A stretch of DNA of 64,000 nucleotides. Origin: Eledone cirrhosa. Its lineage: Eukaryota. The notes under the pieces are model-generated. The model saw only the letters and a program-made list of their open reading frames with translations. It searched no databases and was not told the origin of the DNA. Location of the stretch: NCBI GenBank assembly GCA_964016885.1, contig OZ024754.1, positions 24,242,001 through 24,306,000 on the forward strand, given 5' to 3'. Shown one piece after another: positions 1 through 16,300 of the stretch (its first letter is position 1; every line of letters starts with the position of its first letter). A program made the translations under genes and the position numbers.

Positions 1-160
1 CAGTCGGCCGCCCTCGAGTGGATTTTATCTGTTATATTCCTTTGTTATATTTTGAATACCTGATGATGTCACCGGATTCATACTGAACCCGGTCATTGAA
101 ATGATCATAGTATAATAAACCTTTCAAGGATTTACACCAGTCCAGCCTCCTGTTATTTTA
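1..160 (+). mobile_element. 3' end of a PLE-like pseudo-LTR, truncated by the window edge and running into an AT microsatellite
   Basis: HHR plus AATAAA, about 40 nt of extension, then an interrupted (TA)n at 159-257; same layout as the neighbouring elements. Confidence 0.55.
56..113 (+). ncRNA. Minimal type I hammerhead ribozyme, family A (long stem II, possibly degenerate)
   Basis: Stem I ATAC(56-59)/GTAT(110-113); core CTGATGA 60-66; long stem II with ACCGG/CCGGT and TTCA/TGAA; GAAA 98-101; palindromic stem III ATGATCAT 101-108; predicted cleavage after A109 (AUA triplet); AATAAA at 114-119. The base of stem II is non-canonical. Confidence 0.7.
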
Positions 161-222
161 TAATTATATATAAATATATATATATAAATATAAATATATA
201 TATATATAAATATATATATATA

Positions 223-257
<35 letters not shown>

Positions 258-384
258 GAATGTATATATAATGTATTTTGCAATACACTTTATGCTTAAT
301 TAAAAGCATTTTGAAGACCGTATGCTATTGTTTTAGAGTAGTGACAAACTCACTTACTTTAATCTCAGCAAACAAGGGGAGATA

Positions 385-429
385 AGCCGACAAGGCCTTG
401 TTTCGCATTTATTGATGCTTATCAAGGCT
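385..429 (-). ncRNA. Hammerhead ribozyme family B, inverted copy
   Basis: Exact reverse complement of 607-651. Confidence 0.85.
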
Positions 430-606
430 AACTACTCCCTCCTGTCTACTGAGATCACTGATGTTATATTCTTATAGAATTCTAGTAAATAATCAGGAAC
501 TGATTATACAGAGCGGTTGCCGGTCAGGCAGAAATAAAAAATTAGAATTGGAGCTCTGAAATAACAATATAACATCAGTGATCTCAGTAGACAGGAGGGA
601 GTAGTT

Positions 607-651
607 AGCCTTGATAAGCATCAATAAATGCGAAACAAGGCCTTGTCGGCT
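607..651 (+). ncRNA. Minimal type I hammerhead ribozyme, family B (U3-A8 core variant)
   Basis: Stem I AGCC(607-610)/GGCT(648-651); core TTGATAA 611-617; stem II GCAT-caataa-ATGC 618-631; GAAA 632-635; palindromic stem III ACAAGGCCTTGT 635-646; GUC triplet with predicted cut after C647. Confidence 0.85.
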
Positions 652-812
652 TATCTCCCCTTGTTTGCTGAGATTAAAGTAAGTGAGTTTGTCACTACTC
701 TAAAACAATAGCATACGGTCTTCAAAATGCTTTTAATTAAGCATAAAGTGTATTGCAAAATACATTATATATACATTCATATATATATTGCTATTTCAGA
801 ACTCCAATTCTA

Positions 813-857
<45 letters not shown>

Positions 858-872
858 AAAAAATGGGGAGAA

Positions 873-943
<71 letters not shown>

Positions 944-953
<10 letters not shown>

Positions 954-1346
954 TAAACGGAATAGAAAATGCTGACAAATTGTTCACAGTTGAAAAATGG
1001 TTTAATTAGGAATAAAAGAGTATTAGTGATTGTATGGGTTAGTATTCAGTTGTGGTTTTAAGTTTTTAAGTTTTTACCGGTTGCGCATTTCTAAATGCTT
1101 TTCAAAAATAATTTTGAGATAGAGTGTCCGAGATCTCAAAATTATTTTTGAAAAGCATTTAGAAATGCGCAACCGGTAAAAACTTAAAAACTTAAAACCA
1201 CAACTGAATACTAACCCATACAATCACTAATACTCTTTTATTCCTAATTAAACCATTTTTCAACTGTGAACAATTTGTCAGCATTTTCTATTCCGTTTAC
1301 CAATATATAATAACTTAATAACTTGTGTGTTACACCTCTATTCTTT

Positions 1347-1351
<5 letters not shown>
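944..1351. repeat. Long palindrome (177-bp arms, 12-nt loop) with a ~41-nt tail, between (TA)n tracts
   Basis: 944-1120 is the reverse complement of 1133-1309; loop AGAGTGTCCGAG; unpaired extension 1310-1351; (TA)n at 875-950 and 1351-1428. No HHR core seen. Confidence 0.9.
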
Positions 1352-1433
<82 letters not shown>

Positions 1434-1774
1434 GTGTGTGTATATATAATATATATATATAAACAGTATTCAAGAATGTCTTACTAATGCGGTTTCGTGT
1501 GGAACAGGACGTTAAGAGTTAAATAATTTTTGCCAATGCAGATCCCACTAGTTGAATAGAACTGTTTTTTTTATTTTATTTTATACTAAATGCAGATATG
1601 TTAATAATTACACGAGATCTTTTCATAGAAATATATACATAAGTAGATAAATAAATAACTAACGAACTAGTAAATGCGACATGTTCTGCACTCTCTTTTT
1701 CTTCTGTATTTACGTCTCGAACGATAACGATTCGCTGTTCCGGTTGTCAGCTGTTATGAATGAATAGCTGGTAT

Positions 1775-1901
1775 GAACACATACACACACATATATATTA
1801 CATAAATTCATACATACATGTACACAAACAGACACACACACATACTTACATACATATACATGCATGTACACAAACAAACACACGCTCACACACATATGTA
1901 A

Positions 1902-1967
<66 letters not shown>

Positions 1968-1992
1968 ATATACATATATGTGTGTGCGTGTT

Positions 1993-2028
<36 letters not shown>

Positions 2029-2107
2029 TGTATATAAATATATATGCATATATATAGATGTTTGTATACACACACACATCTACACACAGAGACACACATA
2101 CACACAC
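1775..2107. repeat. Compound (CA)/(TA)/(TG) microsatellite region
   Basis: Alternating purine-pyrimidine tracts, directly visible. Confidence 0.9.
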
Positions 2108-2155
2108 TAAGAAGATCACTACGTTAGGAAATCTGCTAATGTATGTATTTACTTA

Positions 2156-2208
2156 AGAAAGAAGGAAAGAAAGAAGGAAAGAAAGAAGGAAAGAAAGAAG
2201 GAAAGAAA
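2156..2208. repeat. Polypurine repeat with a 12-bp unit (GAAGGAAAGAAA), about 4 copies
   Basis: GAAGG recurs at 2161, 2173, 2185 and 2197. Confidence 0.85.
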
Positions 2209-2375
2209 CGGCAAAGAAAATCTTTACATTTTGTTTAAATTTATTTCGTTTACTTAGCAAAATACTAAGTACATTTTCAGCTATTCCTTAAAATATATTC
2301 CATATTTCCACAGACTTTCATTGAAACCAAAATCTTACACTCGAAAACCGGAAATTCAAATACGAACATTTTAGA

Positions 2376-2597
2376 AATAATAACGTTTTTTCTAATTTAG
2401 GCACAAGAACAGCAATATTGTGTGTGGGTGAGGATCGAAGAGGTGTGAGGGGTGTGTGGCATTACATCATCCTTTATGTTTTATGCTGGTACTTTATTAT
2501 ATCCATCCCCGAACGGAAAATTAAACTCTAGACGTAAAGAGTTGTAATTGAATATTGAAAAGAATTCTGCACGATGATCTAACGATTCACCCAATAT
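2376..2597 (-). mobile_element. Degenerate SINE copy, same family as 12016-12298
   Basis: Reverse-complement matches to the plus-strand copies: ctaatttaggcacaag vs cttgtgcctaaatcag, tactttattatatc vs gataaaataaagta, and a (TAA) tail. Confidence 0.6.
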
Positions 2598-2849
2598 TTC
2601 CCAATAGTATCGATTTCTAATTATAGTTTGAATTATATATAAGTGTTTAGTAACATATTTTAATGAATAATTTACTTCAATAATCTAACACAGTAGGAGT
2701 TCATACAAAATTGTTTTGAAAATATTATAGGTAGCCGTGTGTACAGTTTATTCCAATACATTATCGTATTTTGAGCTGATATAACTTTTTCACCTACAGC
2801 GTTCCAGTTTTTATATTTGAAAACGAATTTCTTTATATGTTTGTGTGTG

Positions 2850-2930
<81 letters not shown>

Positions 2931-3077
2931 GTTAAAATACTGGAGCGTATTGGAGTTAAACACCCTCTTCGTATTATAGAAATGACAGTAAAAGGTATAG
3001 CTCAATGTAGTTAAACAGAGCCGAAGAATTAAGAAAGTAAAACAAAGAAGCCTTCAATACATCAAAAGTCTTTATTA

Positions 3078-3115
3078 GCCGACAATGTTTCGTCCTATTA
3101 AGGACTCATCAGGGC
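3078..3115 (-). ncRNA. Hammerhead ribozyme family C, inverted copy
   Basis: Exact reverse complement of 4340-4377. Confidence 0.92.
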
Positions 3116-4339
3116 AATTAAAACAACAAGAAGTATTATCGGCCAATACAAGCCGGAAACTCCGAAGAATATGGAGTGTACATACACTAAAGTATTGCAA
3201 GATTATGGGTAAAAATATATAATAAAAATAATAAAAATATATAATAAAAATTACTAAGGAGGTGTATAACATTAAGAACCATATTACAAATATAGTCCAA
3301 AGCAAAAAACCCCTAGAGCTAAACAAAGGTGGTTATATAGAGCAGGAATTATATATAATACAATGTAATATAATATAATATACTTTACCAATATTAAAAT
3401 TACAATAAAAATTAAAAGGTACAATATACATATGTATATATGTACGCACACATACACATACATCAATACACATATCCATCTTCAACTGCACAAATTAAAC
3501 CTTATTAAGAGTTTAAATATAAATAAGCATGATAGGAATGAAAATAATAATAATAATAATAATACATATACCCAATATACATGAGGTAATAATATGATAT
3601 TATTATAAGTAGCACATATAATAAATAATAAACTATACAATTATATACTATATAATATAATATAATAGAATAGATAATCTCCGGTTAATTTACACAAACA
3701 ATATAGATGTCGCAATAATACTATAATAATAATATACTAACATTTATAATATACAATATATAATGGCATTCAAGTTAACAAATCAATTCATATAGAGTTA
3801 CAGAGTAGGTGAGGAAAAATAAATTGTACAATACCCAAAATTATGATGGTACAAAAATATAAACATCTTACATGATATATAAAGTTTAACATATCATAAT
3901 GTTACATATAATTAACGGTAAGTAATAAGGATCGATATTACAATAACAAATACAATATAATATAATATATTATATAAAATAATTAACATAATATAATATA
4001 TAATTACTTCTAATTACAAGGTTGGTAAACAGACGTGTATGTGGATGAGTGAGTAAGGGCCAGACAGTAAATATAATGCACAGTAGTATTACAAATAAAA
4101 TATAAAATATAAAATATAGAATAAAATAAATAAATAGAATCAACCGGAAATTAAAAAACAAAAACAAAAGTATACATTTAGGTCTCACATGCAGTTAAGT
4201 AAAAACTAAGGAAATAACCCCGGTAAATGACTCGAAAACCCTATTTGATAAATTAATATTAAAAATATTTAAAATATCCAATAAGGCAGTATAAGTTTCC
4301 GGCTTGTATTGGCCGATAATACTTGTTGTTGTTTTAATT

Positions 4340-4377
4340 GCCCTGATGAGTCCTTAATAGGACGAAACATTGTCGGC
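4340..4377 (+). ncRNA. Minimal type I hammerhead ribozyme, family C (canonical core)
   Basis: Stem I GCC(4340-4342)/GGC(4375-4377); CTGATGA 4343-4349; stem II GTCCT-taat-AGGAC 4350-4363; GAAA 4364-4367; quasi-palindromic stem III ACA-T-TGT; GUC triplet with cut after C4374; AATAAA 4379-4384. Confidence 0.92.
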
Positions 4378-4422
4378 TAATAAAGACTTTTGATGTATTG
4401 AAGGCTTCTTTGTTTTACTTTC

Positions 4423-4479
<57 letters not shown>

Positions 4480-4486
<7 letters not shown>

Positions 4487-4692
4487 AGAAAAAAAGAGAA
4501 TCACTGTTGCGACGAATGGAATTTATTGGACATATTACGATCGTAATAATATTGTAATATTATTATGATCGATTGTAATGTGTCCAATAAATTCCATTCG
4601 TCGCAACACTGATTCTCTTTTTTTCTGTGATATCATACTCTGCTCTATGAGAGCATCGAGTGCTCATACGGACGCTTTAAGCATCCAACACC

Positions 4693-4696
<4 letters not shown>
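4480..4696. repeat. Imperfect palindrome (4480-4633) with a ~63-nt tail, between (TA)n tracts
   Basis: ATATCACAGAAAAAAAGAGAATCA...TGATTCTCTTTTTTTCTGTGATAT arms pair to a centre at AATATT-gt-AATATT with a few mismatches and an indel; (TA)n follows at 4696-4759. Confidence 0.85.
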
Positions 4697-4767
<71 letters not shown>

Positions 4768-4769
4768 AT

Positions 4770-4997
4770 CATCCTACCATCTTATAATACCATCATTTGA
4801 TGACCAGGTTGACCACAAACTGTATTGACACAGCAATAAGATAGCTCTACCATCTAACCATTCATAATAAAAGACCAAGTGACCAAGAGCTGAATTAACA
4901 CAACTATAAGATAGCTCTACCATCCTACCATCCTACCATCATACCATCATACCATCTTACCATCTTACCATCTTACACCATCTTACACCATCTTACA
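4770..4997. repeat. Degenerate ACCATC-based tandem repeat with a 19-bp direct repeat
   Basis: ATAAGATAGCTCTACCATC at 4836 and 4906; ACCATCYT-like units at 4918-4996. Confidence 0.7.
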
Positions 4998-5159
4998 AGC
5001 GTTTCTAAATAAATACAATTAAATATTATAAACAATAGTTATGGTGTAGAAACCTGCTGCTAAGTTGGAGAAGAGATGAGTAACTTTCACTTCCATAATT
5101 TAAGCTGTCTACCCGAATTTCATATGTAAAATGACTTGCCATTATAATTTAGAAAGAAA

Positions 5160-5378
5160 ATCATCATCATTATCATCATCATCTTCTTCTTCTTCTTCTT
5201 CTTCTTCTTCTTCTTCTTCTTCTTCTTCTTCTTCTTCTTCTTCTTCTTCTTCTTCTTCTTCTTCTTCTTCTTCTTCTTCTTCTTCTTCCGCCCAATCGTC
5301 ATCACTTCAATCATCATCACCACCACCATCACCATCATCGTCATTATTACTACTATTATTATTATTGTTATTATTGTT
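5160..5378. repeat. Compound trinucleotide microsatellite (TCA)/(TTC)~35/(CCA)/(TTA)
   Basis: Directly visible; pure TTC tract at about 5182-5288. Confidence 0.95.
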
Positions 5379-5616
5379 TACTTACATGAGGATAAAAAAC
5401 AAACATCTTGAGTTCTCTCTTAAAAGGCATTAAAACACATTCTGACGCCGAGCTGTCGGCTTGCCTTCGCACGATGCTCATCTTAAACACATATTAAGAT
5501 ACGCTTAAATTCCAAATAAACTATTAATCCGAAGACGTGTGCAAGCCGACCATAATACTCAAGTGTGTGTATGTGTGTGTGGTACTCATATATATATGTT
5601 CTATACATATATGCAT

Positions 5617-5744
<128 letters not shown>

Positions 5745-6233
5745 ATATGTGTATATGTATCTATACATATAAAGTTGTAGTTCCTGTCTGTCTGTTTGTT
5801 CACGAACTCCTCCTATAGTTTTGGAGATGAGCCCCGTAACCATATATATTCTGAAACTACATTGCCCAGGGTACTTGGATAAGTATTTTTCCTTTTAATC
5901 AAAAGGCACAAACCCCCGCTGAAAATGTTTTCCCTTCGATTTATATGAAATCTAAACCATAGGTAAATGACAAGATATGATGCCTATTCAAAAAAGTTTT
6001 GAATTGATATTTTGAAAAAAATGATTTACAAGAAACAAAATAAGAATAAGATTTAATAATGTAATTTTGATTTGACATATTACAAAAAATAATGTTTTCC
6101 AATTTTTCATGCATTACATTTTACATTGAGTAATATTGAAATGCAGAGTTTTTCTCCATAAATTATATCACTGATTTAAAATCAATCATCATTTTCTTAC
6201 AAAAAAAAAAATATTGAAACGCACCAAGGCACG

Positions 6234-6235
<2 letters not shown>

Positions 6236-6306
<71 letters not shown>
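6236..6306. repeat. (TA)n(GA)n microsatellite
   Basis: Directly visible. Confidence 0.95.
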
Positions 6307-6509
6307 CAATTTCATCTTGTGATTTGAAGTTTTTCTTCACTATTCAAATAGAACTCACAACATTAAGTTCTTGTCTGAATATGTCACTATCTGTAAACCA
6401 ACTTTTGTATTTTATCTGATGAGGGCGTACCAAAATTTTGGTACCCTTGAAATATATATAATAAAATAAATATGGTTTTATAAAGATAGTTTCCATTTAT
6501 TAATATTAT

Positions 6510-6621
<112 letters not shown>

Positions 6622-6632
6622 GAAAAATGTAT

Positions 6633-7305
6633 GACCCCGACAGCAGAGATCAAGCCGTTTCGACGGCTATTTCCAGAAATATGTGACACCTGTAAAGAAG
6701 TCAACCAGGTATAACTGGAATGGGACCTCAGTGGAACTCCTGGTTCAAATGAGACCAGAAAGTTGATAACCACGTTATCAAGTGGAGGGCAGAAAACTAC
6801 AGTGTTTTAAATGTGGGAAAACACACACATAAAAGCATTCTGCTCAATGCTGAACGCAGAAAACCCGAACAAGATGTTGCTACCAACACCCAAACCTCAA
6901 CAGCAACACCCGAAAACCAAAAACACAACCCCAAAATCCTCAACATCCACCTCACCATCACAAACTACAAAAGACACCAAACCAAAAATTCCCCCGAATG
7001 ACTCTATCCTACCCCTTCCCCTTCTGTCTAACACTCTCACAAACGCACACACAAACATTCCACCACCACACAACATACCCCTTCCCCATACCTCCAATGA
7101 TAACACCTCAGACACAGGAACCTCTACATCTCCAAGTGAGGATGAAGAGGAACCCCCAAAAATCCAAGAAACAAAAAAGTAACAAAAGAAATACAAAAAC
7201 AAAAATATCCACCGTGTCTTGCTAAAAGGATTCCCTCCCTCCCCAAGCACTCCCAGTTTGGACATGGAGATCGAACAACCCGACCTCCAGCAAACTAAAA
7301 GGTAA
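6633..7305 (+). pseudogene. LINE ORF1 C-terminal remnant (gag-like, CCHC zinc knuckle, Pro/Thr/Ser-rich tail)
   Basis: VEGRKLQCFKCG/ENTHIKAFC at 6782-6843 forms CX2CX4HX4C across a frameshift; internal stop at 7180-7182; the frame ends at TAA 7303-7305. Confidence 0.75.
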
Positions 7306-7346
7306 GTGTTCCTGCCCTTTTCTCTCCCTAACTCTTCTTCACCAAC

Positions 7347-10300
7347 ATGGCGTCTATACAAGTTGGATGTTTGAATGTGCGTAGCCTGGGGATGTCCTGG
7401 AAATAGGGCCAATTTTTAAACGACCTCAGGTCACACTATATAAATGTGATAGCAGTCACTGAGTCCAGGATTCACGACAGGCAGCAGCTAACCCCCATGT
7501 TCGGTGACTTTGAGATCTACGTATCTCTCTGTCAGCCAGGAGGTGGAAGGGGAGTTGCTGTTTTGTTTCCAATAAAACCTGGGTTTCAAAGTACAGACAA
7601 TCTACTTGGACCTGGAGAGCAATTTGATTGTCCTAGACGTTAATGGTTGTGAAAGTGGAGCTTTCAGACTGGTTGCCGTAAATGCCCCAACTGGGACATC
7701 ACGACCAGAGTTCTTTAAGCGTTTTTAACGCTCTTTACTGTTAGAGTGGGACTGGAATGGTATCTTAGACACACGTTGGGACTATGTAGAGATATATGTT
7801 AGTAGAGAGCGTGTAATAGCCTCAAAAATCTTATCAGCCAATTCCAACTGGCTGATAGATATCGACTATATTTCCCAAGTGCACCATTGTGGACGTGGAG
7901 CAACCGCTCTGGGTCTTCTAGATTGTATTTAGACAGATTTCTAATTAGACAAAATGATAGGGAAACATTAAGCTGTTCACAAATGCACAGACAACAAATT
8001 AGACAGGGACCCGAATACTGGAAGCAAAACATGTCGCTCCCGACACGTAAATCCTACAGTAAACGGATTAGCACTTTAGTTAAACGTCAGTTGACGGGAG
8101 CCATCGTTAACAACAGATGGTGGTGCTCTCTCAAGAGAGCAATTACAGTAGAATCAATAGCATTTAGCAAGGAAGTAGCTTTAGAAAAGAACAAAACTGA
8201 AAAGGAGCTGGTAGCCAAAGTAGAAGAGGCACTTAGGAGTGGCAGTACAGCTGACATGCTAGCGGCGAGACCGGCATTAGACCAGTTCTTCAACGTGAAA
8301 CACGAAGGTTGTATTGTCAGAAGAAGAACACGTGTTCTGAGAAATGAGGGAGCGAAAGCTCTTAGCTGGGCCTGCGTGGCAGAGGCGAAAAGTGGCAACA
8401 AATCCACAATTTGGTCTTTGGATATTACTTGAATCCAAGCAGATGTGCACGGCCTTCCAGCAGCACTTTGCACAACTGTTCAGGCAGAGCGACTCTCGAA
8501 CACAGATGCGGAGAGCTGCGAAAGGCTGATCACAGCGGGCGAAATAGAAGACGCTCTAGGCCGCTGTGGGTAACGAAAATCCCCCGGTTTAGATGGTCTA
8601 CCTTATGAGTTTTACATAGCCATGCCAGACTTGTTTTCTGAGGTCCTCGAAGCAGTCTACTGCAACTGGTATCAGAACGGGAGAATTCCCAGTTCTGTAA
8701 GCAGAAGCGTAGTAACGCTGATCAGGAAAGATGAGAACAAAGGGGATGAGATAAGCAATTTCAGGCCCATAACTCTGCTCAACACAGTTGAAGATTTTGA
8801 CCAAGATATTAGCAATAAGACTGGCGCTCGTCGTCGAGAACCTGGTGGGGGAAGCGAAAACGTGTGCAATCCCGACCACGAAAACCTCCACCTCATGCGA
8901 TACATCATAGAGAGGGTAGGGTGTAAACCTGGCTTCGGTGGGGCTCTGATCAATTTAGATCAATCTAAGGCATTTGATAAGGTCAACCATCAATACTTGA
9001 AGCGGTTCTCAAGGCGGCCAGTTTCTGTCCCGTCTTCAGAGGCTGGATCGCTGCCATGCACGGCAACATCTGCTCGGCAGTCAAGGTGAATTGTTACCTA
9101 TCGGAGCCATTCCAAATCATGCGTTCCATCCACCAAGGATGCCCTCTCTCCTCCATTCTGTATGTGCTGACTCTCGAGCCACTACTGCGGAAGTTGGAGT
9201 CATTGCAGGGTATCCTGATAGAACCAGGACTGCGAAAAGCAGCATTGGCCTCTGCCGACGACGTGACCGTAATGGTGTCGAAAACCTCAGAAATCGGGGT
9301 AATCGGCAACCTATTACATGAATACGAAACGTTGACAGGAGCAAAACTAAAACCCGAACACGTCTGTCTGTTTGCAACTCGGCAAACCCATGTCGTCCGA
9401 TAACGTCGTTGGACGCTGGACGGAAGGGCCGGTGAAATTGCTCGGGATCTAGCTTGGTCTAGACCTCCAGGTAGACAAAAACTGGAATGAGGCCACGGCT
9501 AAGGTGTTTGCACTCACCCAGAAGTGGGCTGAGTACAAACAACTCTCCTTAAAAAGTCGAGCGGAGATGGCGAACACTTACATAGCGTCCGTCATCTACT
9601 ACCGCTTGACTGTCGTGCCTTGTCCCCGCGATCACCTCACCAAAATGGAACTTCAAGTTCCTTTGGAAGAAACAGGCTCCGTTGGTGAGGAGATCCATCT
9701 GCTGCCAATACCCTTCTAACGGAGGGTTGGGCATGCCGTGGCTGATAATGCGCAAACACGCGCTGAGGTTACGCCATCTCCAGATGTTCTTGACCGGTAA
9801 ACCGGTGTGGTTGTTGGTTGAGAGACGAGCTTTTCCACAACTCGTCTCGTTAACAGAGATGCAGTCCTGGGTAAAGCGAAGACCGAAAATGGGCGCCTGG
9901 CACCTCGAGTGCCTTTAGGCGCTCACAGCCCTCTACGAAGCTAAAACTCCACGTCGACATTCTATAGGGGATTAGTGGAGGATAAGTTCGACGACGTTCT
10001 CGGGGAAACACTAGGCATCGAAGAGGACGAACTGTTCGAGAGGACCTTCCATCCAGGGCCTATGGATAACTTCCAGAGGTCTCTGGCCTGGAAGTGCTAC
10101 CGAGGAGCTCTACCAGTTCGAGACAAAATCTACAGGCACGGACGCCCTGGCTGGGATCCTGCCATAAGGACCTGTCTAACATGCGAGCAGGACATTGAAA
10201 CCGTCCTGCACGCAATTGTTCAGTGCCCAGAGGTGTCCGACCTATGTCAAACAGCTACTGTCACGTGCGGGACGCATCCAGTTGTCAGCCGAGTCCATCG

Positions 10301-10580
10301 TGAGGATCACCCCGCCGCCTTCATTTAAGAATGAAGGAGAGGCGACTTTCCTCTGTCTGGCAGCTATGACGAAATGGTTAATATGGTGGATGAGGTTGAA
10401 AGGACTGAGGGCAAACACCTTTATTTCCGGACAACAACTTATCCCTTCTTTAAATACCACTTCAGAAGGAAGGTGAGAGTGGAGAGAGAGGTGCTACCCC
10501 CCAGTAAATTCGCTGAAAGGTGTGTGAATCTGGCGGAAATGGCCCGAGTGAATGGGCTTTCCCTGTATATAAACCTGTAG
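7347..10580 (+). pseudogene. LINE ORF2 (APE endonuclease, reverse transcriptase, zinc finger) with multiple stops, frameshifts and deletions
   Basis: APE: MASIQVGCLNVRSL, VIAVTESR, GRGVAVLF, GDWNGILD, WTWSN..LDRFLI. Linker: GPEYWKQN. RT: KSPGLDGLPYEFY, FRPITLLNT, LDQSKAFDKVNH, QGCPLS, ASADD (9248-9262). C-terminus: GGLG, CLTC..ETVLHAIVQC. Stop TAG at 10578-10580. Confidence 0.93.
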
Positions 10581-11624
10581 GTTGAGGAAGACGGGAACAC
10601 CTACAAAACGTGCTCCTGGTGTTGAGGGTTGTTCTATGTTCTATCTACTACTCTGCAGTAACGTTCCCCTATTGAGGATTTTGATTGTTATTTTATTTTA
10701 TATATTGTTTATTGTTATTATTAATGTTAAAGTTTACATAATTTTTATATAAAACCCCCGCCGTCACGTCTTGTAATGTCCCATTTCTTGTACGCCCTTG
10801 TGGCAAATAAAGAATATCTATCTATCTATATGCGTTTCTCTCTCTCTCCCCCTCTCTTTCTCTGTGCCTCACTATCCATATATCTCCCTGAACTGCCTGC
10901 ATGTCTGTCTACGGGAGGCACAGCAAATATTTCTAATATTTTTCATCTTGGATGTTCCTACCACAGGGATTTATTAGACAAACTGAGCTAAACAAGTACA
11001 CTGACGATTAGATAGGTAGACGAAAAATTTAGTTTACGATCACAACAGTGATGATACTTTCACAAGTATAAGGAAAACATTTTCAGGCACCCTGTAGCTA
11101 CATAAAAGTATTTAAGTATTAAACATATAATCGTATCTCCTGGGTACCAGAGTAATATATTAATATTTTCACAGGTGTAAGGCGAGCGTTCATGCAAGAG
11201 CTTAACTCTTGGCGAGTTGAGTTCGTGACCCGCTTTCAAATGTTGATTTTAGCTATTTCATACCCCTTTCCATGACTAATGCTATTCAGAAAGGCATGAT
11301 TGTCACCACAACAAACTCCTCTTCTTTTTTTTCTACAATCCTGAGCTTAATGTATCTATCGATGTGGAAATCAATATTTTGATATATTTTGTTGAACTAT
11401 TTCCACAAAAGAGTGAATCTGATGGCAAGACGTGTGAATAGAATAGTCTAACTTCGTTTTTTGTGTTGTCGCCATTCAACTTTAATCATATTACTCATAT
11501 TACTGTTCGTAAGAAAAGCACGAACACAACATCCCAATATATTCCTCAATAAATGTGTAACTTTGTGTTACTACAACTTCAAGTTAGAAGTCAATATTTT
11601 TACAGGTGTTGAAAAAAAAAGTTC

Positions 11625-11845
11625 TTCCGGAGGCAGTGTGTAGTAACTACAGAGGGACATATTTATTGAAACAAATTAAAATGTACCCAGGTATTCCTAC
11701 ATAATATCCAGGTCGTCCGGTGTAGCTACATAAGTGAACATGGTTACCAAAAACAACTTGATTACAATTTATCCAGGTGATGCAACAAAACTTTCAGGTC
11801 GTTCCGTGTAACTACATGAGGGAACATGACTGCCAAAACATTCAA
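11625..11845. repeat. Degenerate ~85-bp tandem repeat, about 3 copies
   Basis: CAGGTCGTCCGGTGTAGCTACATAAGTGAACATGGTTACCAAAA (~11709) vs CAGGTCGTTCCGTGTAACTACATGAGGGAACATGACTGCCAAAA (~11795), with a weaker copy GTAACTACAGAGGGACAT (~11644). Confidence 0.65.
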
Positions 11846-12015
11846 TGAAAACTTCGGCAAGTAATGTAGTAACAACATTTTATTCTGTGTTAGTATATAT
11901 ATAACAAAACATTAACTATGGAAACACCAAAGTGAAGAAACACAAAATCTTTCGTACATTCGATACAATTCGACAAGCCTGAGAATATACATCCTCATTG
12001 TTTCATGTGAGAGGA

Positions 12016-12298
12016 TGGTGGATTAGCAGTAACGGTAGAGCGTCAGACAACAGGGTGGTGGATTAGCAGTAACGGTAGAGCATCAGACAACAGGGTGGTG
12101 GATTAGCAGTAATCGGTAGAGGGTCAGACCTTTGCGGCATGTAGATGCGTCTCTTTATGTTCTGAGTTCAAATCCTGCCGAGGTTCATCCTTTCGGAGTC
12201 GATAAAATAAAGTACTAGTAACACACTGGGGCCGGTATAATTAATTTTCCTCCTCCCCACAAATTGTTGGCCTTGTGCCTAAATCAGAAACCTTTATT
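12016..12298 (+). mobile_element. tRNA-derived SINE with a triplicated 40-bp head
   Basis: A-box-like TGGTGGATTAGCAG at 12016, 12056 and 12096; B-box GAGTTCAAATCC at ~12164; body TTTCGGAGTCGATAAAATAAAGTAC...GGCCTTGTGCCTAAA shared with other copies in the window. Confidence 0.8.
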
Positions 12299-12321
12299 GT
12301 ATCATGTAACTGGGTGTATGA

Positions 12322-12467
12322 ATGGCGGACTCAGTAGAACGTTGAACAAAATGCATTGTAGCATTTAGTTACGTCCCTTTACGTTCTCAGTTCAATTTCA
12401 GCTGAAGTCAGTTTTATCTTTTATCCGTCCACGTTGATAAAGTAAAATACTGGCATCGATTTAATTG

Positions 12468-12470
<3 letters not shown>
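12322..12470 (+). mobile_element. Degenerate SINE copy interrupted by the RTE-type insertion
   Basis: Colinear with 12016-12298 (ctttacgttctcagttcaat, gataaagtaaa, atactggcatcgat). Confidence 0.65.
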
Positions 12471-12498
<28 letters not shown>

Positions 12499-12871
12499 CT
12501 TCTTCTTCTTCTTCTTCTTCTTCTTCCGCCCAATCGTCAGAGTGCGTAGCTCGGAGATCAAGGAGTCACTCCAGGTAGAGCCGCTACTTCTCCGAATTAA
12601 GAGATCACAGCACCGATAGTATCGGCATGTGGTTAGAATGTCGCGGGAAAGAATCGCTGGACAAATTTTACAGGCAAAACCAACCGGCAGGAGACCCAGT
12701 GGTAGACACCGAGCAAGATGGTTGGATAACATCCATGACTTTATCTGGAATCGCTTGGGGATCCAACCGGATCAGTTGGAGACGGTTGCTTCTGACAGGA
12801 ACTGTTGGAAGGTGTTTGAAGGCTCTGCCCTCACGACTATCTCAGGAATAAATGGGCGAAGAAGAAGAAGA
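12468..12871 (+). mobile_element. 3' fragment of an RTE-type LINE with a (GAA)n tail and an inverted tail copy at its 5' side
   Basis: Translation RVRSSEIKESLQVEPLLLRIKRSQHR*YRHVVRMSRER..GRRPSGRHRARWLD..ASDRNCW matches the C-terminal W.GHV.RM / GRP..RW.D / DR..W pattern of RTE-like ORF2; ends in TGGGCG(AAG)4. Confidence 0.85.
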
Positions 12872-13147
12872 CTTCCCAAAAACTCATAAAAAGTTTCCAA
12901 CAAACTAAATCTGCGATATGGCTTCGATCCTTAATCATAGCCATTTGAAGTCGTTGATATAACTAATGTCCTTGAGAAAAACATAAATACCATTTCTCAA
13001 TATATTATTTACACACACACACGCACACACGAGCGCGCGCACACACACACAAGTTGTACTGTAAACTGTCAATAAACAAGCTGCCATATTGCACTTCAGC
13101 AGCATTGCAGGGTAACATTCTTTATTGAACTGCTAATCAATAACATT

Positions 13148-13318
13148 GTATCGGTAGAGGGTCGGACGCCATGCTTTGACGCATAGAGTTACGGCCCTTG
13201 CCATTCTGAGTACAAATCCTGACGAGGTTAACTTTGCCTTTCATTCTTACGGGGTCGATAAAATAAAGTACAGTGGGTAATTGCTGACCTGTGCGAAAAG
13301 TAGAAACAATTATTATTA
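13148..13318 (+). mobile_element. Degenerate SINE copy immediately upstream of the satellite
   Basis: ATCGGTAGAGGGTCGGAC, TTCTGAGTACAAATCCTGACGAGGTT and GGGGTCGATAAAATAAAGTAC match 12112-12215. Confidence 0.8.
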
Positions 13319-13371
13319 GAACAAAATTAATAAATACACAAGGTTGGAAAAAAAAAGCATTCGTACTGACA

Positions 13372-16300
13372 CCAACTTCACAACACCATTAACAACACCA
13401 ACAACAAGACACAACCATTAACAACACCAACGACAACACACCACCATTAACAACACCAACAACAACACACCACCATTAACAACACCAACAAAAAGACACC
13501 ACCATTAATAACACCAACAACAACATACCACCATTAACAACACCAACAACAACACACCACCATTAACAACACGAACAACAACACACACCACCATTAATAA
13601 CACCAACAACAACACACCACCATTAACAACACCTGCAACAACAGACCACCATTAACAACACCAACAACAACACACCACCATTAACAACACCAACAACAAC
13701 ACACCACCATTAACAACACCTGCAACAACAGACCACCATTAACAACACCAACAACAACACACCACCATTAATAACACCAACAACAACAGACCACCAACAA
13801 CAACACACCAACAACATACCATCATTAACACCACCAACAACATCACACCACCATTAACACCACCAACAACAACACCACCAACAACAACACACCACCATTA
13901 ACAACACCAACAACAACACACCACCATTAACAACACCAACAACACACCACCATTATCAACACCACCAACAACACACCACCATTAACAACACCAACAACAC
14001 ACCACCATTGACAACACCAACAACAACACACCACCATTAATAACACCAAAAACAACACACCACCATTAACAACACCAACAACAACACACCACCATTAACA
14101 ACACCAACAACAACACACCACCATTAACAACACCTACAACAACAGACCACCATTAACAACACCAACAACAACACACCACCATTAACAACACCTACAACAA
14201 CAGACCACCATTAACAACACCAACAACAACACACCACCATTAACAACACCAACAACACATCACCAGTAACAACACCAACAACACACCACCATTATCAACA
14301 CCAACAACAACACACCACCATTAACAACACCAACAACACACCACCATTGACAACACCAACAACAACACACCACCATTAACAACACCAACAACAACACACC
14401 ACCATTAACAACACCAACAACACACCACCATTGACAACACCAACAACAACACACCACCATTAACAACACCAACAACAACACACCACCATTAACAACACCA
14501 ACAACACACCACCATTGACAACACCAACAACAACACACCACCATTAACAACACCAACAACAACAGACCACAATTAACAACACCAACAACAACACACCACC
14601 ATTAACAACACCAACAACACATCACCATTAACAACACCAACAACACACCACCATTATCAACACCAACAACAACACACCACCATTAACAACACCAACAACA
14701 CACCACCATTGACAACACCAACAACAACACACCACCATTAACAACACCAACAACAACACACCACCATTATCAACACCAACAACAACACACCACCATTAAC
14801 AACACCAACAACAACACACCACCATTAACAACACCACCAACAACACACCACCATTAACAATACCAACAACAACACACCACCATTAACAACACCAACAACA
14901 GACACAACCATTAACAACACCAACAACAACACACCAACAACAACACCACCAACAACAACACACCACCATTAACAACACAAACAACACACCACCATTAACA
15001 ACACCAACAACAACACACCACCATTATCAACACCAAAAACAACACACCACCATTAACAACACCAACAACAACACACCACCATTAACAACACCAACAACAA
15101 CACACCACCATTAACAATACCAACAACAACACACCACCATTAACAACACCAACAACAGACACAACCATTAACAACACCAACAACAACACACCAACAACAA
15201 CACCACCAACAAAAACACACCACCATTAACAACACAAACAACACACCACCATTAACAACACCAACAACAACACACCACCATTAACAACACCAACAACAAC
15301 ACACCACCATTAACAACACCAACAACACACCACCATTGACAACACCAACAACAACACACCACCATTAACAACACCAACAACAACAGACCACCATTAACAA
15401 CACCAACAACAACACACCACCATTAACAACACCAACAACACATCACCATTAACAACACCAACAACACACCACCATTATCAACACCAACAACAACACACCA
15501 CCATTAACAACACCAACAACACACCACCATTGACAACACCAACAACAACACACCACCATTAACAACACCAACAACAACACACCACCATTATCAACACCAA
15601 CAACAACACACCACCATTAACAACACCAACAACAACACACCACCATTAACAACACCACCAACAACACACCACCATTAACAATACCAACAACACACCACCA
15701 TTAACAACACCAACAACAGACACAACCATTAACAACACCAACAACAGACACAACCATTAACAACACCAACAACAACACACCAACAACAACACCACCAACA
15801 ACTACACACCACCATTAACAACACATACAACACACCACCATTAACAACACCAACAACAACACACCACCATTATCAACACCAAAAACAACACATCACCATT
15901 AACAACACCAACAACAACACACCACCATTAACAACACCAACAACAACACACAACCATTAACAATACCAACAACAACACACCACCATTAACAACACCAACA
16001 ACAGACACAACCATTAACAACACCAACAACAACACACCAACAACAACACCACCAACAAAAACACACCACCATTAACAACACAAACAACACACCACCATTA
16101 ACAACACCAACAACAACACACCACCATTAACAACACCAACAACAACACACCACCATTAACAACACCAACACCAACACACCACCATTAACAACACCAACAA
16201 CAACAAACCACCATTAACAACACCAACAAGACACACCACCATTAACAACACCAACAACAACACACCACCATTAACAACACCAACAACAACACACCACCAT

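What the first reader, a model, noticed from the sequence alone, without database searches (positions are those of the whole stretch)
538..816. Second-order inversion: a 33-nt terminal tail copies the sequence just inside the right arm
Seen: 784-816 (TATATTGCTATTTCAGAACTCCAATTCTAATTT) is the reverse complement of 538-570 with 2 mismatches, and the inner end of the large inversion (470/566) falls within this segment. Established: Penelope-type elements have a 30-40 nt reverse-complementary tail at the pseudo-LTR 3' end. Inference: the tail-paired stem may define where template switching or self-priming made the inverted arm. This is independent support for a PLE origin.
Basis: partly seen in the sequence, partly recalled or inferred. 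Interest (0 to 1): 0.7.

Follow-up and report, generated by a model that had tools for sequence, protein, structure and literature searches.

The report
Penelope-type insertion with a doubled tail
This is a small ribozyme-carrying jumping-gene insertion of a known type, and its end matches an inner stretch backwards most likely because the end piece was copied twice in opposite directions, not because it is a built-in folding signal.

Summary
The match is real but off by one base: 784-816 pairs with 539-571 at 31/33, and the tail proper (789-816) with 539-566 at 26/28. The 223-nt inverted arm (248-470 / 566-788) is exactly the loop this stem closes.

The insertion is Penelope-type (PLE): it has a U3-A8 type I hammerhead at 607-651, (TA)n flanks, head-to-head arms and a one-sided tail. 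But the papers read define the PLE tail as an optional extension, not a reverse complement. The tails of five other candidate elements in the window pair with nothing upstream, so the match is not independent support for a PLE origin.

Best reading (0.5): on the minus strand, 566->248 is tail + 68 nt + arm, one permuted 319-nt non-autonomous unit. The 'complement' is then the previous tandem unit's tail on the opposite strand. Main rival (0.3): an inherited stem that fixes both breakpoints. The stem has 0 G-U pairs on the ribozyme strand, unlike the helix next to it. No second copy was available to decide between them.

The parts
153..257 (.). Left (TA)n-type microsatellite flank, merging with the outer end of the left arm
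   Evidence: AT-only run 153-257
248..470 (-). Left arm: tail-less copy of the pseudo-LTR-like segment, sense on minus
   Evidence: 223/223 complementary to 566-788
385..429 (-). Hammerhead motif, left copy
   Evidence: descriptor scan
471..538 (.). 68-nt unique spacer; its sense strand is what separates the two main models
   Evidence: no other match in 1-13400; fold tests do not fix its strand
539..566 (-). Second copy of the tail (tail'), read on minus; 26/28 identical to 789-816
566..571 (.). 6-nt AT microhomology shared by the arm start and the arm/tail boundary; the inverted junction in the best model
   Evidence: three-way comparison
566..788 (+). Right arm
575..686 (+). Long G-U-containing helix that carries the hammerhead
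   Evidence: duplex -40.7 kcal/mol on plus versus -24.2 on minus; 6 G-U among 32 pairs of the MFE fold at 579-616
607..651 (+). Type I hammerhead motif, U3-A8 core variant, 4-bp stems I and II, palindromic 12-nt helix III; predicted cut after 647
   Evidence: 0 of 2000 arm shuffles match the descriptor; Rfam HH9 only 19.5 bits, E 0.9, below the gathering score
779..788 (+). Internal (AT)5 run at the arm/tail boundary; inferred internal priming site for a (TA)n target end
   Evidence: sequence; function inferred
789..816 (+). Tail proper, 28 nt, present after one arm only
817..854 (.). Right (TA)n flank

Best explanation
248-816 is one young retro-insertion of a small, non-coding, hammerhead-bearing element mobilised by a (TA)n-targeting Penelope-like RT/endonuclease. 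The donor was a partial tandem (arm-tail'-spacer-arm-tail, unit 319 nt). Both ends of the cut (TA)n target primed cDNA. The left end primed internally at the (AT)5 run and copied arm, spacer and the upstream unit's tail' (248-566), stopping at the upstream AT run. The right end primed at the tail end and copied tail plus arm (816-566). The two cDNAs were joined head-to-head through the 6-nt AT microhomology at 566-571. The 'second-order inversion' is then two direct-repeat tails of the donor that now lie on opposite strands. SHOWN: geometry, hammerhead motif, microhomology, mismatch distribution, strand asymmetry. INFERRED: the donor tandem, the sense strand of the spacer, two-ended priming and the joining route.
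For: (1) In PLE tandems the tail is simply what follows the pseudo-LTR and runs into the next unit (PMC3846280; PMC11167929). A tail followed by more unit is therefore expected, and it explains why the match runs to the tail's last base. (2) The A. carolinensis PLE protein cuts and extends both strands, starts internally at two sites that bound the tail, and uses mostly uncleaved RNA. (3) Arms 223/223 but tails 26/28 (P=0.012 if uniform) fits an older upstream unit. (4) The tail stem has 31 Watson-Crick and 0 G-U pairs, with two C-A type mismatches on the ribozyme strand, and is stronger on minus (-44.5 versus -35.9). The neighbouring helix shows the opposite, evolved-RNA pattern. (5) 0 of 5 other candidate elements have a complementary 3' end. 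(6) Hammerhead tandem units of 150-450 bp, proposed to use PLE machinery, are described (PMC7229834). The 319-nt unit folds as a circle at -83.1 versus shuffles -53.7 +/- 4.9, though most of this comes from the arm. (7) By eye only: the minus-strand spacer holds a degenerate form of a bulged hairpin seen at Hydra-clade unit starts and tails.
Against: No second copy of the family was found, so the tandem donor is unobserved. The junction must fall exactly at the upstream arm/tail boundary, and the microhomology is not rare (57 inverted 6-mer pairings within the unit). Fold tests do not fix the spacer's strand: shuffling it weakens both readings (2/150 and 3/150; 11/1000 plus, 19/1000 minus). 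The loose hairpin descriptor also hits the plus strand at 553 and is at chance level (9 hits, shuffle mean 2.9). The plus frame of the spacer loosely resembles a Hydra endonuclease C-terminus (21 of 5000 shuffles), which would favour the rival. In element 2938-4427 the long copy carries the tail, as the rival predicts here. The G-U argument rests on two positions.
Confidence: 0.5

Rival explanations
1. Inherited stem (closest to the first reader). The element reads plus from 471 to 816 and its tail has long paired with 539-566, closing the ribozyme domain. A cDNA started at the AT run (779-788) stalls where the still-paired stem begins (566). A cDNA started at 816 unzips the stem and reads on to 471. 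A variant has the minus-strand cDNA or an antisense RNA fold back at the stem top. Either way one structure fixes both ends of the inverted arm.
For: The arm equals the loop of the stem at both ends. The stem forms in the predicted folds of both strands (z about -10) and as single-stranded DNA (z -8.1). On minus it is 33/33 with two wobbles, which suits the antisense self-priming proposed in PMC3846280. A loose Hydra-like peptide ends at a stop at 557-559, about 48 nt before the ribozyme.
Against: No G-U pairs, and both mismatches are disruptive on the ribozyme strand. The feature is absent from the 5 other elements. The strict Hydra motif is not met, the loose motif was chosen after seeing the peptide, and it needs two indels plus loss of the invariant Asn and His. 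Protein searches gave nothing relevant. It needs a separate earlier event to create a complement spanning exactly the tail.
Confidence: 0.3
2. Single-event double template switch. One cDNA folded back at 466-471 and copied itself (making the right arm), then jumped through the AT run to 567-571 and copied 566->539 as a de novo tail before joining the target.
For: It explains identical arms, both breakpoints and the AT microhomologies at both switches.
Against: It predicts an identical tail; 2 of 28 differ while 0 of 223 do (P=0.012). One-sided tails occur in neighbouring elements with no internal template.
Confidence: 0.1
3. 539-816 is a MITE with 33-bp terminal inverted repeats, later partly duplicated in inverted form.
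For: 278 bp, non-coding, inverted ends.
Against: No target-site duplication of 2-10 bp (0 of 9 lengths), an internal hammerhead, and no second copy bounded at 539/816.
Confidence: 0.04
4. Sequencing or assembly fold-back artefact between TA runs.
For: Arms are 100% identical here and at 944-1309; both lie between self-complementary TA runs.
Against: There is a 95-nt non-palindromic interval, a diverged tail pair and a ribozyme in the sense orientation expected for PLEs. The same layout at 4480-4695 has arms only about 90% alike.
Confidence: 0.05

Closest known systems
EN+ Penelope-like element insertions with inverted pseudo-LTR and tail (Pen2a_Av, PMC3846280; general scheme in PMC8557442 Fig. 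2 legend)
   Same: Head-to-head inverted terminal copies, a ~30-nt extension on one end only, and a hammerhead in the repeat.
   Different: No RT or GIY-YIG ORF, and no palindrome at the junction. A second copy of the tail sits at the junction on the opposite strand, which the passages read do not describe.
Hydra-clade PLEs (PMC8557442)
   Same: (TA)n targets and a hammerhead 100-200 nt from the 3' end. By eye, a short TA run follows the ribozyme, and some of the consensi end at it.
   Different: U3-A8 core, not seen in the listed Hydra motifs. The strict C-terminal motif is not met, and this element's tail has no strict bulged hairpin.
Poseidon element PAc of Anolis carolinensis (PMC11167929)
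   Same: Two apparent 3' ends separated by a tail; AT-rich target; copies on both strands.
   Different: PAc initiates without homology to the cut DNA, whereas here the tail-less end coincides with a 10-nt AT run that could pair with the target. PAc is autonomous.
Metazoan non-LTR retrozymes (PMC7229834)
   Same: A 150-450 bp, low-GC, self-paired unit with a type I hammerhead (319 nt under the best model).
   Different: Those occur as head-to-tail multimers with canonical ribozymes and circular RNAs. Here there is a head-to-head insertion, a PLE-type core variant, and no observed tandem or RNA.
Schistosoma Cercyon min-HHR U3-A8 variant (PMC4209133)
   Same: Same core covariation, G10.1-C11.1 pair and palindromic helix III; paired motifs on opposite strands 100-700 bp apart are described there.
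   Different: Stem II is 4 bp rather than 7-8, and helix III is longer.

Membership tests
Penelope-like element (EN+) | ORF with PLE-type RT and GIY-YIG endonuclease | tested here: not met
   No ORF of 120 aa or more in 248-816; peptide searches negative. At most a non-autonomous or truncated derivative.
Penelope-like element (EN+) | Type I hammerhead motif in the terminal repeat | tested here: met
   607-651; 0 of 2000 shuffles; variant core described for PLEs. Rfam score is below threshold.
Penelope-like element (EN+) | Inverted (head-to-head) terminal copy | tested here: met
   248-470 / 566-788, ribozyme sense pointing outward
Penelope-like element (EN+) | 30-40 bp tail at one end only | tested here: met
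   28 nt unique, 33 with the shared AT bases; definition
Penelope-like element (EN+) | Insertion in (TA)n or AT-rich target | tested here: met
Penelope-like element (EN+) | Dispersed multi-copy family; direct tandem pseudo-LTRs | not testable with these tools
   No eukaryote genome collection; single copy in the window
Penelope-like element (EN+) | Ribozyme self-cleavage | not testable with these tools
   The monomer MFE fold pairs the core away; activity as a dimer is inference
Hydra clade | C-terminal E-x4-C-x-H-x2-K motif of the endonuclease | tested here: not met
   strict motif in 0 of 6 frames; loose motif in 1, post hoc
Non-LTR retrozyme | 150-450 bp self-paired unit with type I hammerhead | tested here: inconclusive
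   holds only under the best model; fold
Non-LTR retrozyme | Head-to-tail multimers and circular RNA | not testable with these tools
   no tandem ribozymes in the same orientation in the window; no RNA data
MITE | Terminal inverted repeats | tested here: met
   539-571 / 784-816
MITE | Target-site duplication | tested here: not met
   0 of 9 lengths (2-10 bp) match

The most novel reading that the evidence does not exclude
In this family the PLE tail is one strand of a 28-33-bp clamp that closes the whole ribozyme domain. The clamp, acting on the RNA or on the minus-strand cDNA where it is perfectly paired, sets both the start and the stop of the inverted copy. That would be a structural cause for two unexplained PLE hallmarks at once, the optional tail and the head-to-head inversion, and it could be tested with stem-breaking and compensatory templates.
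Probability: 0.25. Interest if true: 0.65.

Novelty: new member of a known kind. Interest (0 to 1): 0.27.

Why it matters
How PLEs make their tails and inverted ends is still open: PMC8557442 names it as a task, and PMC11167929 explains the tail only as two start sites. This locus gives two sharply different predictions. Under the best reading it records two-ended priming of a tandem, retrozyme-sized, non-autonomous unit, which is useful but expected. Under the rival, an RNA or cDNA stem dictates both breakpoints, which would be new. One alignment of family copies decides between them.

Tried and rejected
Other copies: none in the window. Two scans of bacterial and archaeal genomes gave 0 hits and 2 hits; both hits match only the pattern itself.

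Coding remnant in the spacer: no usable Atlas hit; 0 Pfam families for 3 peptides; 0 of 5 candidates scored. The one library hit was a repeat of an unrelated zinc-finger protein.

A local helix 491-504 / 553-566 that favours the tail' bases looked promising but is not significant (168 of 2000 shuffles; 47 of 378 double transitions weaken it as much). A 9-nt word shared with another element's tail reached 26 of 2000 in one of 10 comparisons, so it was not used.

Host identification through the neighbouring LINE failed: 112 hits, none named. MITE and artefact readings are rejected above.

Literature: listings of searches, and the passages read, showed no description of a PLE tail that is the reverse complement of the pseudo-LTR start. 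Most subscription papers, including the original Penelope tail papers, are outside the library. The figure supplements of PMC11167929 (including its RNA fold) and its GenBank file could not be read and may bear on this.

Full report
OBSERVATION. The match is real. It is beyond chance (E 2.2e-7; 0 of 1000 shuffles; 0 of 100). The large arms are exact over 248-470 / 566-788 (223 nt). Bases 784-788 belong to the arm, so the tail proper is 789-816 (28 nt, 26/28 to 539-566). The order on plus is: TA run, inverted arm, 68-nt spacer (471-538), tail complement (539-566), arm, tail, TA run. The duplicated arm is exactly the loop enclosed by the tail stem. The outer coincidence is partly definitional, because the tail is whatever the other arm lacks, and it is blurred by the AT run 779-788.

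WHAT THE ELEMENT IS. Each arm holds a type I hammerhead motif (607-651 plus, 429-385 minus): 4-bp stems I and II, a palindromic helix III and a U3-A8 core. The descriptor is met in 0 of 2000 arm shuffles, although Rfam scores it weakly (19.5 bits, E 0.9). PMC4209133 (parts 1-2 of 4 read) reports this core covariation, the G10.1-C11.1 pair, palindromic helix III, and paired motifs on opposite strands in PLEs. The ribozyme sits on a long helix that is much more stable on plus and contains G-U pairs, which fixes plus as sense for the right arm. Head-to-head copies, a one-sided 30-40 bp tail and (TA)n targets are listed PLE traits (PMC8557442 passages; section 11). There is no ORF, so this works like a PLE insertion but is at most a non-autonomous or truncated derivative. 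The region looks like an invertebrate genome, possibly cephalopod; that is recalled from repeat content and was not tested (one search gave no names).

The passages read define the tail as an optional extension, not a reverse complement. PMC3846280 (passages; Discussion) says it extends the pseudo-LTR into the ORF. PMC11167929 (parts 1-2 of 4) equates it with the stretch between two internal RT start sites. PMC8969392 (passages) calls it a short 3' extension. Reverse-complement ends appear in these passages only as the telomeric stretches of endonuclease-less PLEs. Within the window, three other TA-flanked inverted elements with one-sided tails (944-1351, 2938-4427, 4480-4695) and two single ribozyme remnants (1-160, 6307-6511) were tested. 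None of the 5 has a 3' end complementary to its body (922, 548, 327, 458 and 684 of 1000 shuffles as good). The complementarity is therefore a peculiarity of this copy or family, not a PLE signature.

TWO READINGS OF ONE SEQUENCE. Model B: read on minus, 566->248 is tail' + spacer + arm, a permuted 319-nt unit, and the head-to-head junction is at 566-571, where arm start and tail start share 6 AT bases. The complement is then the upstream unit's tail. Model A: the element reads plus from 471, the stem is inherited, and it stops or folds back the second cDNA.

FOR MODEL B. It follows from the published tandem layout, and it explains why the match ends at the tail's last base. Both differences lie in the tail pair and none in the arms (P=0.012); A also allows this, but same-event copying does not. 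The stem has 31 Watson-Crick pairs, no G-U and two disruptive mismatches on the ribozyme strand, and is stronger on minus (-44.5 versus -35.9 kcal/mol), the reverse of the adjacent helix (-24.2 versus -40.7). Units of this size are described as non-LTR retrozymes possibly moved by PLEs (PMC7229834, part 2 of 6 and passages).

FOR MODEL A. One structure accounts for both ends. The stem is predicted on both strands and as DNA. Perfect pairing on minus suits the antisense self-priming idea. The plus frame loosely resembles a Hydra endonuclease C-terminus (21 of 5000 shuffles, post hoc; strict motif absent).

NOT DISCRIMINATING. Spacer shuffles, folds of 471-566, the local helix (168 of 2000) and the loose hairpin descriptor (hits on both strands). 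I put B at 0.5, A at 0.3, same-event switching at 0.1, and MITE and artefact at about 0.05 each. That the locus is a PLE-type retro-insertion at all I put near 0.9.

MECHANISM (best model). A PLE protein in trans cuts (TA)n on both strands, and both ends prime, as shown in vitro for PAc. One end starts at the internal AT run and gives a tail-less copy; the other starts at the tail end. The cDNA ends anneal at the AT microhomology and are repaired. The geometry and motifs are shown; every enzymatic step here is inferred by analogy.

NOVELTY. This is a new member of a known kind. The searches (listings only, apart from the six papers named) showed no report of a tail complementary to the pseudo-LTR start. 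The older Penelope papers are outside the library, and the figure supplements of PMC11167929 were unreadable. Of the PMC8557442 supplement, parts 1, 2, 52 and 53 of 59 and two term searches were seen; the ribozyme motif is not in it. With one copy and a simpler explanation available, interest is modest (0.27). The clamp reading would merit 0.65 if family copies bear it out.

Noticed in passing
window 944-1351: Second fold-back element between TA runs: 177/177 arms, 12-nt spacer, 42-nt one-sided tail, and a degenerate U3-A8 hammerhead near 1148-1180 with the same stem II arms as the element studied.
   Followed up: partly
window 2928-4427: PLE-type element on minus: 134-nt inverted copy (1 mismatch), 1.1-kb T-rich body, canonical hammerhead at 4337-4381 and 3074-3118 (Rfam Hammerhead_1, 31.7 bits, E 1.3e-4, gathering 34), and a ~100-nt tail.
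   Followed up: partly
window 3021-3029 and 3162-3170: A 9-nt direct repeat, found only twice in the window, flanks both ends of the duplicated arm of that element, so tail-start sequence again lies at the inner breakpoint. Unexplained.
   Followed up: partly
window 4480-4695: Older fold-back element (arms about 90% alike) with a 62-nt one-sided tail and no hammerhead found.
   Followed up: partly
window 3021->3000 (-) and 4637-4661 (+): Both tails start with the same hairpin design (4-bp foot, 2-nt 3' bulge, inner stem) with a two-sided change in the foot. These are the only 2 strict hits in 13.4 kb (10 of 200 shuffles reach 2). By eye the same design follows the TA run in three Hydra consensi and opens a fourth. 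Candidate RT-binding or start signal.
   Followed up: partly
window 1-160 and 6408-6468: Two further single hammerhead-like motifs ending near TA runs; probable truncated PLE 3' ends.
   Followed up: partly
window ~6600-10810: Decayed L1/Tx1-like non-LTR retrotransposon on plus, with frameshifts and stops; RVT_1 and zf-RVT matches below the curated cut-offs.
   Followed up: partly
window 12012-12450 and 13150-13271: Three related short repeats, 68-77% alike, that look like SINE copies; the label is recalled, not tested.
   Followed up: no
window 13379-63997: A 50.6-kb satellite of a 29-nt CA-rich unit, 1747 copies, 85% matches, extreme strand skew.
   Followed up: no
window 11675-11838: Local direct repeat of about 78 nt at 76% identity.
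   Followed up: no
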